A stretch of DNA of 64,000 bases from Escherichia coli O157:H7 (lineage in GTDB: Bacteria > Pseudomonadota > Gammaproteobacteria > Enterobacterales > Enterobacteriaceae). The DNA is taken from NCBI RefSeq assembly GCF_013167455.1, contig NZ_CP038328.1. One strand, written 5' to 3'. Position numbers: made by a program. How positions within the stretch are numbered: the stretch's first letter is position 1; every line of letters starts with the position of its first letter. Positions 36,001 to 39,000 of the stretch are shown here, one piece after another.

Positions 36001-39000
36001 ATGCTGGTTTTTACCTGATGAAACAAGCCTGACGACCTTTCAAATTTTATTCTGATTTTACGATCAATAGCTCGTTTTTTATCCGGTAGTAAGTCGCTCG
36101 GCTGATTCCTGCTGCCTTCATGATGAGTTCAGGTTTTACTCCTTGCTCCAACATCTCTCTAACGATCTCTCGGGCTTCCTGATTTTTCGCCCTCCCAATG
36201 TATATGCCTTCGCTTTTAGCTCGTTCAATGCCTTGCTGTTGGCGTTTACGGCGTGTTTCGTAATCCTGCCGTGCCATTGTGGCAAGGATATCAATCAACA
36301 TGGCATTTACGGCTCTCAGGATGCCGCTGGTTAGATCATTGCCTGCCATCTCGACCATCTGCCAGCTCGTTGGTAAATCCATTGATACGATGATTAACCC
36401 TTTTCGGTTGAGCGTATCTTTCAGTTCGACCCATGCACTATGTTCTAGGCGACTCAGACGATCTATAGCTTCCACTAGCAACAGATCGCCGGACTGGGCT
36501 TCAGACAATAGCCGCATAAGCTCTACGCGCTCAAGCTTCGCCCCGCTAGCATTTTCTATATACTCTCCTGCAATCTGCCAGCCTTTTGATTTTGAAAATT
36601 CACGTAGGCTGGTAAGTGCTCGATCAGCGTGTTGCCCCTCAGTTGATGCTCGGCAGTAAATTCTAACGTTCATTGCATTGTCTCAAAAGGGTTGTGAATA
36701 TAAGTGCAAATGATACATAATGCAGTTTGTGTAGTCAAAATGTTCCTATACAACCCTATTGAGACTTTGTATCACCTTGTCATTACGGTATACCCAATTG
36801 AGACAATGATAACGGCTGGTGTTTAAGGTGATATATTGAGCTAGCCGAAAGAAACAGCCCGACACCGTTTTTACCGTATGAGATAATTTGTTGTGCTGGT
36901 GGGGTTGCTTGCCAGTACTTGGAATGGTACAAATCTGTACCATTGTTCGACGGTCTATTAACAAGGAGTGTTAAGATGGAAAAAGACCTGAAAGAGTTGC
37001 GGGAATACCTATTACTTTCCCCCGTCTATTCTGAAATTAACGATTGTCTGGCTAGTCTCTCAATGGAAGACGTGACCAATGAAGAGTTCGCGGAACGTTT
37101 GGGAATTGCTCCTGATTGGATGGATGCTATAGATACTAGCCAACTTGCTTAAGAAAGGATGCGCCATTGCTGGGCGCGTTTCTCATTTCTCCCGTAGCAC
37201 TACGCATACCTTCTAATAAATTTCACCATCAAAATCAGTAGATTGATAAAATGTCACTCAAATCTGTCATAAGTATCACAATTTTTAAACCTAATTGAAA
37301 TATAATGTTATTAGATATTATCTAATGGAGGTAGTTTAATGTCTTATGCGTTGATTGATAATGCTTCGTTAACAGCAGTCGAAAGAACACTGGGTGATAT
37401 TCTTGTTAAGAATCCAGATACTATTAACGGAGATTTAGTCGCTTTTGAAAATCTTATTCAAGCGATACTTTTTTACGATACCCTGATCTGTGTAGATAAT
37501 TATAAAAAAGAATATAGAGATAAACGCATTGCTAAATTTGACTTTATTAAATTTGTATCTGAAAGTGATTTTCAACTCAGTGAACTTGATCAGTTAGCAC
37601 AAGTTGAATCTCGGCAAATTACTTCCGAAATTAGAGGTGGGGAGTTTGTTGACGATGATTTTAGGCAACTTGTAGAGATGCTTAAGCTGAATATGATTTG
37701 CACATGGGATCTTCGGTCTAGCGTGTATTACTTAACAATGAAAATGCTTGGTCAGCCCGGTACTCCTGAATATGCGAAATATAGTGAACTAAGTGCATCG
37801 ATTTTTAATGAATTATCAGATGCTTCTGATACGAAAGGGTACTGGTCAACCGATGTGAAGCTAGTGAGTTCATCTGGACATGAATATACTGAGCGTGAAT
37901 TTGAACTAGAAAGGGAAAAATCTACTCGCGGTAAAGGAGGTATGACTCGTTCACTTGAAATGTTTATCGCATCGCTAAATTGGTTGGCATATAAATCTAT
38001 TTATTACAGCGTCATTGCTAAGCATTTTAAAGCAGACTCATTTATTCATCCAATAAGGCATGCATATCAATTGCATTGGATGAAAAAAACAGGTGCTTTT
38101 GGTCATGATTATACTGCAAGGTTGGTGCAATCGTTGTCTGATAAAATCAGTACTGCAAGATCTGAAATTGTAGATCATGGACGCACATCTACTATTTCAT
38201 TAGATTTACCAATATTTTCTGCATGGCTAGCAAACGAAACAGGAAATGTCTCTCAAGTTATCAATTCAGCTTTAGAGCTTAGAACACATGATCATTTTCG
38301 TACGTGTCGAGATGTAATCCGAGAGATTCATGTGACCTACGATGAATCGGGGATAAGTGCAGGAAATAAAAAAGTAACAAAATTACTAAGTGATTTAGAT
38401 AAAATATCTGGAGATATTAAACGAAGCTACGGTGTTCCATCAAATCAAGGTATTCAAGGCAGTTTTTTGATAAAATGTATAAATTCATTGACAGGACTCG
38501 TGGGTATTCCAGGTTTGCCTGATAAAGAGTTTGCACTGAGCACTCCTGAATTTATGAAGTCTAAACAACATAAAGCATTTTCTACCGTTTTCAAGGATGT
38601 TACTAACGAACTAACAAGCATTGAACGTTTAGGTGGGCTTCGGGATAAATTAGCGTCGAACTTTACTATTGATGATTCTTATTATACCGAGCCAAAAACA
38701 GAGGATCCGAGATTCCGTTACGTAAGTAGTAATTGGAAGCAGCCAATGTAGATATAGTTAAATGTATAATTATAAGTAATAACAATTTACAGACATTATT
38801 GAATTAAAAATATTGCGTTAGGGTATAATATCTAACGCAATTAGATTGAAAAGTTAATTAAATAGTTAGTCAGAGCTAACTTCTTGTATTGTTAGTTACA
38901 CTGCCTAACCTACAGACAAAAAGCCCCTCAGAATTGTGCTTACGCGCTCAAATTTCACTGCTGGGGATTTTTACGTACATTCAACCCAAAAAGTGACCAA

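What the first reader, a model, noticed from the sequence alone, without database searches (positions are those of the whole stretch)
36677..36808. Three TTGAGAC-type repeats upstream of the serine recombinase resemble a res or invertible-segment site
The motif occurs three times within 130 bp directly upstream of the recombinase start, two copies forming an inverted pair about 55 bp apart. This layout matches resolvase-type sites and suggests the adjacent orphan genes could be resolved, inverted or mobilised.
Basis: seen in the sequence. Interest (0 to 1): 0.45.

Follow-up and report, generated by a model that had tools for sequence, protein, structure and literature searches.

The report
Resolvase res site with embedded promoter
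The three repeats are real and are most likely binding half-sites of the neighbouring serine recombinase, forming a resolvase-type "res" site that also covers the gene's own promoter; this is an ordinary mobile-element device, here stranded as a single copy in a decayed island of E. coli O157:H7.

Summary
A 13-17 nt motif, ACCC(W)(W)TTGAGAC(AATG), occurs three times in 36676-36808 and nowhere else in the 64 kb window.

Copy 3 is the outer arm of a 28-bp imperfect inverted repeat (36777-36804) centred on the palindrome GGTA|TACC. That palindrome is invariant in nine enteric homolog loci. A GGGTATACC-like element lies about 95-130 nt upstream of the gene in 61 of 77 homolog loci (44-96% protein identity).

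- Sequence similarity between related loci collapses exactly at this centre in seven locus pairs from five lineages, as expected of a crossover point.
- Copy 2 lies a fixed 39 bp from the outer arm, just upstream of a -35/-10 promoter.
- Copy 1 lies between the promoter and the ATG.
- In distant homologs the repeated pentamer changes together with the recombinase's recognition helix.
- The motif closely resembles the half-site upstream of staphylococcal sin.

An invertible segment is not supported. There is one site only, and 308 O157-type genomes are collinear. With a single site and a truncated island, nothing can be resolved here now.

Verdict: a new member of a known kind, of modest interest. 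Nothing was tested experimentally.

The parts
36047..36673 (-). Small serine recombinase gene (208 aa): resolvase catalytic domain plus a C-terminal helix-turn-helix
   Evidence: ORF. Pfam PF00239 scores 83.4 bits against a cut-off of 23.3; HTH_7 scores 19.5 bits, below its cut-off of 23.8. The best solved relative is Sin/Bin3 (2r0q, E 5e-16), aligned over residues 6-201, followed by gamma-delta and Tn3 resolvases. Y6, R8, S10, D71, R72 and R75 are invariant in the family alignment.
36676..36808 (-). Whole res-like region (the finding), read in the recombinase's direction from 36808 down to 36676
   Evidence: All strong half-site matches in the 64 kb window fall in this region.
36777..36804 (.). 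Predicted subsite I (crossover site): a 28-bp imperfect inverted repeat with its centre between 36790 and 36791 and the palindrome GGTATACC at 36787-36794. The inner arm 36777-36790 is degenerate (TACCGTAATGACAA on the minus strand).
   Evidence: GGTATACC is invariant in nine enteric loci. PWM scores are 21.8 bits for the outer arm and 9.3 bits for the abutting inner arm, and the PWM was not trained on the inner arm. A GGGTATACC-like centre is found in 66 of 77 homolog loci, 61 of them at -130 to -95, against 5 of 74 control segments. Homology breaks fall at this centre in seven locus pairs from five lineages.
36752..36765 (+). It has the same orientation as the outer arm of subsite I and lies immediately upstream of the -35 element.
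   Evidence: 22.1 bits. The 39-bp start-to-start spacing from the outer arm is identical in all nine enteric loci despite sequence divergence. In L007 and L009 an inverted partner 6 bp away overlaps the -35 element (8.9 and 13.9 bits). In O157 no partner is detectable (about -9 bits).
36710..36738 (-). Predicted sigma-70 promoter of the recombinase gene: -35 TTGACT (36738-36733), 17-nt spacer, -10 TATCAT (36715-36710)
   Evidence: 10 of 12 consensus matches, the best site in the region. Both hexamers are conserved in the enteric alignment. This is a prediction only.
36705..36718 (+). Weak candidate half-site overlapping the -10 element (GTATCATTTGCACT in the recombinase's direction)
   Evidence: Only 3.4 bits in O157. 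The same position scores 6-16 bits in L007, L008, L009, L011 and L012 and 14.3 bits in L085.
36680..36693 (-). Its GAGA probably doubles as the ribosome-binding site.
   Evidence: 16.9 bits. A half-site ending in GAGAC or GAGAA occupies the same place in seven of the eight other enteric loci (6-22 bits in six of them, raw sequences). The spacing to copy 2 is 71-73 bp in all loci where both are detected. Distant homologs also carry forward copies just before the ATG.

Best explanation
The region 36676-36808 is the recombination and regulation site (res) of the adjacent Sin-like small serine recombinase.

Inferred mechanism:
- Recombinase dimers bind half-sites of consensus (T/A)ACCCTATTGAGAC.
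- Strand exchange takes place at the central AT of GGTA|TACC in the 28-bp inverted repeat 36777-36804 (subsite I).
- The other copies, copy 2 upstream of the -35 element and copy 1 in the 5' leader, are accessory sites. They would make the reaction selective for two directly repeated res sites on one molecule.
- Because the accessory sites bracket the -35/-10 promoter and the ribosome-binding site, they would also let the recombinase repress its own gene.

Biological role: res and the recombinase belong to a roughly 10-kb island integrated at argW. The complete island carries a P4-type tyrosine integrase, AlpA, an HUH rolling-circle Rep, a variable defence cargo, res and the recombinase. The module would convert multimers, or tandem copies, of the excised replicating element into monomers, as plasmid and SGI1 resolvase systems do.

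In O157:H7 the island is truncated and only one res is present. At most the autoregulatory function can still operate.

Shown here: the repeats, their conservation, the covariation with the recognition helix, the homology breaks and the promoter match. Inferred: binding, the cleavage position, resolution activity and repression.
For: 1. The motif is non-random and confined to this spot.
2. The position and spacing of the three copies are conserved in homolog loci at 59-96% protein identity. The spacing is 39 bp in all nine enteric loci and 71-73 bp where both copies are detected.
3. A PWM trained only on the distal and middle copies finds, independently, the abutting inner arm of subsite I, the proximal copy and, in relatives, partners overlapping the -35 and -10 elements.
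4. The GGGTATACC-like centre is present in 66 of 77 homolog loci across alpha-, beta- and gamma-proteobacteria. In 61 of them it lies at -130 to -95. Only 5 of 74 control segments have a match.
5. Specificity covariation: with the helix S-R-S-T the repeat is GAACC (23 of 28 loci, 4-7 copies against 0.2-0.6 expected). With S-M/T/S-S-T it is GAAGC or GAAGT (6 of 6). Pseudomonad helices (STTT and related) go mainly with GATAC where a repeat reaches three copies. The enteric GISRATYYRIK goes with GAGAC.
6. Pairs of loci that are 91-99% identical on the gene side become unrelated (24-39% identity) exactly at the predicted centre. This holds for seven displayed pairs from five lineages and for O157 against the GapS6-cargo E. 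coli strains.
7. The protein's nearest solved relative is the resolvase Sin. The half-site upstream of sin in pI258 and pSK62, ACCCTAATCATAC, scores 13.2 bits on the enteric PWM, a level reached in the window only by the three copies.
8. A 10/12 promoter match lies between copies 2 and 1.
9. The island encodes an HUH Rep (PF23343) and an integrase. A res/resolvase system that removes multimers of an integrative element is documented for SGI1 (PMC12217951).
Against: - There is no binding, cleavage or expression data.
- In the O157 allele only three strong and one moderate half-site exist. The expected partners at the accessory positions are absent or very weak (about -9 and 3.4 bits), so the three-dimer model rests on relatives.
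- The layout matches neither Tn3 res nor Sin res in spacing.
- Homology breaks at the centre could in principle mark a module boundary rather than a crossover.
- The six GAAG[CT] loci may represent few independent events.
- Only one res is present in the window, so no reaction can occur there now.
- The 100% conservation among O157 genomes reflects clonality, not selection.
Confidence: 0.75

Rival explanations
1. The repeats are operators only. The protein, or its sites in this lineage, serves purely as an autoregulated DNA-binding system, and recombination activity has been lost or was never used in the E. coli island.
For: The O157 allele has degenerate partner half-sites. There is a single site in the genome region. 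The island is truncated. Copies 1 and 2 bracket the promoter.
Against: The catalytic residues are intact and invariant. The inverted repeat around GGTA|TACC lies outside the promoter and is the most conserved element. Homology breaks at its centre indicate past recombination there.
Confidence: 0.12
2. The site is an att-like junction. The recombinase moves the gene-side module (gene plus inner arm plus accessory sites) into res-like targets, so the centre of subsite I is the end of a small mobile unit rather than an internal resolution site.
For: There are sharp breaks at the centre, with proper but different outer arms in different contexts. The module occurs in very different backgrounds: plasmids, an island with a large serine recombinase, and the argW island.
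Against: In E. coli the DNA on both sides of the site belongs to the same island, and the island has its own tyrosine integrase next to argW. Small serine recombinases with a C-terminal HTH are known as resolvases or invertases (established knowledge). The same break pattern is produced by res x res exchange between related elements.
Confidence: 0.06
3. The repeats bind another protein, for example the divergently encoded 58-aa product (36976-37152) or a host factor. They would control the divergent promoters independently of the recombinase.
For: The small ORF is conserved next to the site in the E. coli islands. A weak plus-strand promoter match exists at 36859-36887.
Against: The small ORF is absent from other contexts that keep the repeats (L085; plasmid loci). 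The repeat sequence co-varies with the recombinase's own recognition helix. The motif resembles the half-site upstream of sin.
Confidence: 0.04
4. The site is one end of an invertible segment (Hin/Gin-type switch) controlling the neighbouring orphan genes.
For: There are inverted copies of the motif. NCBIfam gives a distant hit to the Mpi invertase family (37.9 bits against a cut-off of 272).
Against: There is no second crossover-type site, and GGTATACC occurs only once in the 64 kb window. The 308 O157-type genomes are collinear across 35400-39500. The inverted copies are 54 bp apart and enclose only the promoter. The protein is far closer to resolvases than to the Gin invertase (E 5e-16 against 0.009).
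Confidence: 0.03

Closest known systems
Sin resolvase and its res site (Staphylococcus aureus plasmids pI9789, pI258, pSK1; structure 2R0Q)
   Same: Sin is the nearest solved protein (E 5e-16, aligned end to end) and has a similar recognition helix (ITRQTVYRIK against ISRATYYRIK). Its half-site, ACCCTAATCATAC, is almost the same as the motif here: 10 of 13 identical to copy 2, 12 of 13 to the L012 variant, and 13.2 bits on the enteric PWM. As in Sin, the site lies directly upstream of the gene, and the crossover subsite is an inverted repeat farthest from the gene (PMC2428073). In the alpha-proteobacterial relatives the gene-proximal copies are head-to-tail at 14-15 bp, as in Sin site II.
   Different: Sin res is 86 bp with two subsites and a spacer of about 33 bp that binds HU or IHF (spacing read). 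Here the next half-site starts 11 bp after subsite I. No IHF consensus is present. The region spans about 130 bp and contains the promoter. In O157 there is no adjacent head-to-tail pair. Protein identity is low.
Tn3 / gamma-delta resolvase and res
   Same: The enzyme family is the same (E 1.7e-10 to gamma-delta). Both have a 28-bp crossover subsite with a central AT. Relatives show further inverted-repeat subsites of different arm spacing, about 34 and 37 bp outer to outer in L007 and L009. Res overlaps the resolvase promoter, giving autoregulation (established knowledge of Tn3 res).
   Different: No transposase or terminal inverted repeats are nearby. Subsite spacing differs: about 42 bp between the centres of subsites I and II here, against 53 bp in Tn3 (the Tn3 figure is from memory). 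The half-site sequence is different. The accessory partners are degenerate in O157.
SGI1 resolution system (res plus resolvase of an integrative mobilizable island)
   Same: A resolvase with an upstream res sits inside a chromosomally integrated mobile island. Its shown role is removal of island multimers (PMC12217951).
   Different: The island type is different (IncA/C-mobilised against a small argW island with an HUH Rep). SGI1 res is described as Tn3-like. No sequence relationship was tested here.
Hin/Gin/Cin/Pin DNA invertases with hix/gix sites
   Same: They are small serine recombinases with a C-terminal HTH and inverted-repeat crossover sites.
   Different: Invertases need two inverted sites flanking a segment and a Fis-bound enhancer. 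Here there is one site, the genomes are collinear, and the protein is only marginally similar to Gin (E 0.009).

Membership tests
Small serine recombinases (resolvase/invertase family) | N-terminal catalytic domain with the nucleophilic serine and conserved arginines | tested here: met
   PF00239 scores 83.4 bits against a cut-off of 23.3. The Y6-x-R8-x-S10 and D71-R72-x-x-R75 motifs are invariant across 14 family members and align with Sin and gamma-delta.
Small serine recombinases (resolvase/invertase family) | C-terminal helix-turn-helix DNA-binding domain | tested here: inconclusive
   HTH_7 scores 19.5 bits, below the cut-off of 23.8. However, the phmmer alignment to Sin runs through the HTH to residue 201.
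Resolvase res sites (general) | Site lies next to the resolvase gene and contains a crossover subsite: two inverted half-sites around a central dinucleotide, about 28-30 bp | tested here: met
   36777-36804 has arms of 21.8 and 9.3 bits abutting at GGTA|TACC. The centre is conserved in 61 of 77 loci at -130 to -95. The actual cleavage position is not testable with these tools.
Resolvase res sites (general) | Additional accessory recombinase-binding subsites in fixed register with subsite I | tested here: inconclusive
   Two further strong half-sites lie at conserved spacing (39 bp and 71-73 bp). Their dimer partners are visible only in relatives (L007, L009, L011, L012, L085) and not in O157.
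Resolvase res sites (general) | Two copies in direct repeat on one molecule serve as substrate | tested here: not met
   There is only one site in the 64 kb window. This concerns present activity in O157, not the nature of the site. A multimer of the excised complete island would supply the second copy.
Resolvase res sites (general) | The recombinase binds the site and catalyses resolution | not testable with these tools
   This needs gel-shift, footprinting and resolution assays. The indirect support is the helix-motif covariation and the natural junctions at the centre.
Sin-type res | Subsite II is a head-to-tail direct repeat, separated from subsite I by a spacer of about 33 bp bound by HU or IHF | tested here: not met
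   In O157 the spacer is 11 bp, no IHF consensus is present and there is no adjacent direct pair. Head-to-tail triplets do occur in the alpha-proteobacterial relatives. The Sin layout is taken from PMC2428073 and from the pI258 sequence.
Tn3-type res | Three inverted-repeat subsites; res lies between tnpA and tnpR in a transposon | tested here: not met
   No transposase is adjacent. Three inverted-repeat subsites are recognisable only in some relatives.
DNA invertase systems (Hin/Gin) | Two crossover sites in inverted orientation flanking an invertible segment | tested here: not met
   There is a single GGTATACC-centred site. All 308 genomes at 99% identity or more are collinear over 35400-39500.

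The most novel reading that the evidence does not exclude
Res x res recombination between tandem or co-resident argW islands is the mechanism that reshuffles their defence cargo. In that case the resolvase module would be a cargo-exchange engine as well as a multimer resolver, and the O157 470-aa orphan in the cargo slot would be an uncharacterised anti-phage gene.

Observations compatible with this reading:
- The O157 and GapS6-cargo alleles switch from 98% to about 39% ungapped identity (150 nt) exactly at the centre of subsite I.
- One strain shows traces of tandem islands.
- The slot holds GAPS6, SIR2 or orphan genes in sister islands.
Probability: 0.2. Interest if true: 0.55.

Novelty: new member of a known kind. 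Interest (0 to 1): 0.3.

Why it matters
The finding assigns a function to an unannotated intergenic region and to a "recombinase family protein" carried by 559 of 5,426 complete E. coli genomes, including the O157:H7 lineage.

It also defines, from sequence alone, the half-site, the probable crossover point and the promoter overlap for a widespread proteobacterial branch of Sin-like resolvases found on plasmids and islands.

The natural junctions at the centre of subsite I show that these sites have been used to build chimeric elements. This is relevant to how small defence islands exchange cargo.

None of this changes the understanding of resolvase systems. It is a well-documented example rather than a surprise.

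Tried and rejected
- I searched the window for a partner site with the 17-mer, the 13-mer and a PWM. None was found, so inversion or excision within the window is rejected.
- I checked for inversion polymorphism through collinearity of E. coli genomes. None was seen. The 929-nt query could not by itself exclude a break at 36790, because positions 1-744 already cover 80% of the query. The collinearity claim therefore rests on the 4.1-kb query.
- At first I suspected that the homology break at 36803 against the GapS6 strains marked a cassette boundary. I rejected this because weak homology continues (the small ORF is 79% identical). The break is better read as an allele junction at subsite I.
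- A full-text search for the centre sequence returned only unrelated primer hits.
- Searches for literature on the argW island and for rolling-circle islands with res returned nothing.
- The IncP-9 search gave background on res-hunter transposons but nothing on the pWW0 homolog.
- An Rfam scan of 36400-37400 found no RNA family.
- An IHF consensus scan found no match with up to one mismatch.
- Pfam, NCBIfam and PADLOC gave nothing for the 58-aa, 470-aa and 231-aa neighbours.
- An isolated near-perfect half-site 7.5 kb away in complete islands has no GGTATACC-type partner and was left unexplained.
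Full report
**Where this is**

The window is E. coli O157:H7 chromosome, in the dsdA-csc to argW interval. The gene at 36047-36673 on the minus strand encodes a 208-aa small serine recombinase.
- Pfam Resolvase scores 83.4 bits. The C-terminal HTH_7 hit is weak.
- Its nearest solved relatives are resolvases: Sin/Bin3 (2r0q, E 5e-16, aligned over residues 6-201), gamma-delta (1.7e-10) and Tn3 (7.7e-8). The Gin invertase is marginal at 0.009.
- The catalytic motifs Y6-x-R8-x-S10 and D71-R72-x-x-R75 are invariant in a 14-member family alignment.

**The observation**

The three copies exist as described: 36676-36692 in reverse orientation, and 36753-36769 and 36792-36808 in forward orientation.
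- The 7-mer alone is not over-represented in the window.
- The 17-mer with up to three mismatches hits only these three places, against 0.34 expected. None of 100 shuffles reaches three.
- A position weight matrix (PWM) of the half-site reaches 14 bits or more only at these three positions in 64 kb.

**Anatomy after comparison with homologs**

The protein has 810 database relatives at E of 1e-10 or better. I fetched 80 genomic loci encoding relatives of 44-96% identity and several E. coli variants.

Read in the recombinase's direction, the enteric loci share the following blocks.

1. Subsite I. Its form is GTCTCAATTGGGTA|TACCgtaatGACaa. An abutting inverted arm is weaker (9.3 bits in O157, 7.4 bits in L007-L010) and was not used to train the PWM. 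The central palindrome GGTATACC is invariant in all nine sequences. In the window this is 36777-36804, with the centre at 36790|36791.
2. The middle half-site. Copy 2 lies exactly 39 bp (start to start) from the outer arm in all nine loci. In L007 and L009 it has an inverted partner 6 bp away that overlaps the -35 element.
3. A promoter. It reads TTGACT, 17 nt, TATCAT, a 10/12 consensus match. In five relatives a reverse half-site (6-16 bits) overlaps the -10 element.
4. The proximal half-site. Copy 1 lies 7-20 nt before the ATG and 71-73 bp from copy 2 wherever both are detected. Its GAGA is the likely ribosome-binding site.

In O157 itself the partners at the -35 and -10 elements are not detectable or very weak (about -9 and 3.4 bits). 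The O157 allele therefore has one complete inverted-repeat subsite and two strong solitary half-sites.

**Family-wide evidence that this is a functional recombinase site**

- The centre is conserved. Of 77 loci with usable upstream sequence, 66 contain a match to GGGTATACC with up to two substitutions (21 exact, 22 with one substitution). In 61 of them the centre lies between -130 and -95 (median -112). Control segments 1.2 kb further upstream in the same loci match in 5 of 74 cases.
- The repeat changes with the protein. Downstream of the centre each locus carries several copies of a pentamer that varies with the recognition helix.
  - Helices with S-R-S-T go with GAACC (23 of 28 loci). The copies sit at strikingly regular positions: reverse at -119 and -78, forward at -94, -46, -31 and -17. 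There are 4-7 copies against 0.2-0.6 expected from the rest of the locus.
  - Helices with S-M/T/S-S-T go with GAAGC or GAAGT (6 of 6).
  - Pseudomonad helices (STTT and related) go mainly with GATAC where a repeat reaches three copies.
  - The enteric GISRATYYRIK goes with GAGAC.
- The recombinase is the only gene common to all these contexts. This covariation therefore argues that the recombinase itself reads the repeats. The six GAAG[CT] loci may be few independent events, so I treat this as supportive rather than conclusive.

**Natural junctions at the centre**

Among 41 pairs of loci that are at least 88% identical over the 100 nt on the gene side of the predicted centre, 27 are unrelated beyond the outer arm. 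Seven of these pairs, from five lineages, were aligned and displayed.

| Pair | Source | Gene-side identity | Far-side identity |
|---|---|---|---|
| L051 / L052 | two Pseudomonas cerasi plasmids | 99.4% over 171 nt | 25% |
| L021 / L024 | Azotobacter | 98% | 27% |
| L007 / L009 | enteric | 91% | 27% |
| L056 / L076 | Pseudomonas | 94% | 25% |
| L075 / L076 | Pseudomonas | 93% | 24% |
| O157 / L002 | E. coli, GapS6-cargo strain | 98% | 39% |

In each pair the first differences lie 1-9 nt from the centre, and the outer arms are different but valid half-sites. This pattern is expected if different res sites have recombined at the central dinucleotide. Such exchange is well known for Tn3-family elements (established knowledge). 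It is harder to explain if the site were only an operator.

**Comparison with Sin**

In pI258 and pSK62 the sequence GTATGATTAGGGTGTATATTAATTT lies 12-39 nt before the sin ATG. In pI258 an inverted ACACCCTAATCATAC lies 33 bp further upstream. The Sin half-site ACCCTAATCATAC differs from copy 2 at three of 13 positions and from the L012 variant at one. It scores 13.2 bits on the enteric PWM.

The published Sin res is 86 bp. It has an inverted-repeat site I, a spacer bound by HU or IHF, and a head-to-tail site II (PMC2428073).

The present site shares the half-site sequence, the position upstream of the gene and the distal crossover subsite. It differs in these ways:
- the spacer after subsite I is 11 bp, not 33 bp;
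- no IHF consensus is present;
- the accessory copies are spread over the promoter.

It works like a res site, but it is a member of neither the Sin-type nor the Tn3-type layout in the strict sense.

**Biological setting**

In other E. coli lineages the same recombinase and res (92-97% nucleotide identity) sit at one end of a roughly 10-kb island integrated at tRNA-Arg argW. The gene order is:
- P4-type tyrosine integrase
- a hypothetical gene
- AlpA
- a hypothetical gene
- HTH_17 protein
- a hypothetical gene
- HUH Rep (PF23343)
- variable cargo
- a 58-68 aa ORF
- res
- the recombinase

.

An element that excises and replicates by a rolling-circle initiator would produce multimers, and a resolvase/res module is the standard remedy. 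For the integrative island SGI1 a restored res system has been shown to eliminate island multimers (PMC12217951).

In O157 the homology to the complete island stops at 40139, inside the Rep gene, where a P22-like prophage remnant begins. The integrase end is gone and there is only one res. The system is therefore a relic whose only plausible remaining activity is autoregulation. The perfect conservation among 308 O157 and O55 genomes reflects clonality.

**Rivals**

- An invertible segment is rejected. There is one site, the genomes are collinear, and the protein is resolvase-like.
- A pure operator role cannot be excluded for the O157 allele, but it does not explain the conserved crossover-type repeat or the junctions.
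- Binding by the small divergent ORF's product is unlikely, because that ORF is missing from other contexts that keep the repeats.
- An att-like role (the module as a mobile unit ending at the centre) remains a minor possibility.

**Verdict**

It is res-like, not an invertible switch, and not currently able to rearrange its neighbours. The feature is a new member of a known kind, of modest interest. All functional statements are inferences from sequence comparison. The assays that would settle them are listed under next steps.

Noticed in passing
window 37339-38751 (+), with the cargo segment 37184-38913: An orphan 470-aa gene with no Pfam, NCBIfam or PADLOC hit occupies the variable cargo slot of the argW island. 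Sister islands carry GapS6a/b (GAPS6 is a validated anti-phage system, bioRxiv 10.1101/2023.03.28.534373), a SIR2 protein, or other orphan genes in the same slot. The 470-aa protein is therefore a candidate defence gene.
   Followed up: partly
window 36976-37152 (+), terminator-like hairpin 37157-37181: A 58-aa ORF is transcribed divergently from the recombinase and is followed by a bidirectional terminator-like hairpin. It is conserved (79-95% nucleotide identity, or a 68-aa variant) next to res in all E. coli islands examined. It has no family hit and its function is unknown.
   Followed up: partly
window 38914-40139; ORF 39421-40116 (-): This is a truncated HUH rolling-circle Rep gene (PF23343 in the full-length versions of sister islands; the HVHAII motif is retained). 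Homology to the complete island stops at 40139, where P22-like prophage remnant genes begin (tail needle knob, DNA transfer and ejection proteins, intS). The O157 island has therefore lost its integrase end.
   Followed up: yes
L002:16505-16518, L004:16103-16116, L098:14279-14292 (not present in the window): An isolated, near-perfect half-site AACCCTATTGATAC (19.9 bits) lies about 7.5 kb from res, inside the hypothetical gene next to the tyrosine integrase of complete islands. It has the same orientation as copy 2. No GGTATACC-type centre accompanies it. It is unlikely to be chance (about 0.005 expected per locus by my arithmetic). Its meaning is unknown.
   Followed up: partly
L098 (E. coli MB07011) 4368-7616: A 3' fragment of an O157-like recombinase gene, a 263-aa orphan gene, and then a second complete recombinase with res. 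The two copies are 83% identical. This is a trace of tandem or successive islands at the same locus.
   Followed up: partly
L085-L088 (Klebsiella aerogenes): An 81%-identical recombinase with the same res layout sits inside a different island. That island is bounded by a 638-aa large serine recombinase and carries AbiTii, DUF4145, GIY-YIG and HTH_3-peptidase M78 genes and a second 183-aa resolvase. The res/recombinase module therefore travels between unrelated defence-rich islands and plasmids. A 46.8%-identical homolog is on pWW0 (NC_003350, 638-1273).
   Followed up: partly
L095 (pI258) 189-216 against L094 (pSK62) 189-216: Upstream of identical sin genes, pI258 and pSK62 share the gene-proximal direct repeat. 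They diverge completely about 44 nt upstream of the sin ATG, within the spacer between that repeat and the pI258 inverted half-site. pSK62 lacks the inverted ACACCCTAATCATAC half-site altogether.
   Followed up: no
window 35529-35681 (-): A short DUF4942 fragment lies between cscB and the recombinase (Pfam E 2.8e-5, below the cut-off; annotated as a DUF4942 protein or pseudogene in RefSeq). It is probably the remnant of an older element at this junction.
   Followed up: no
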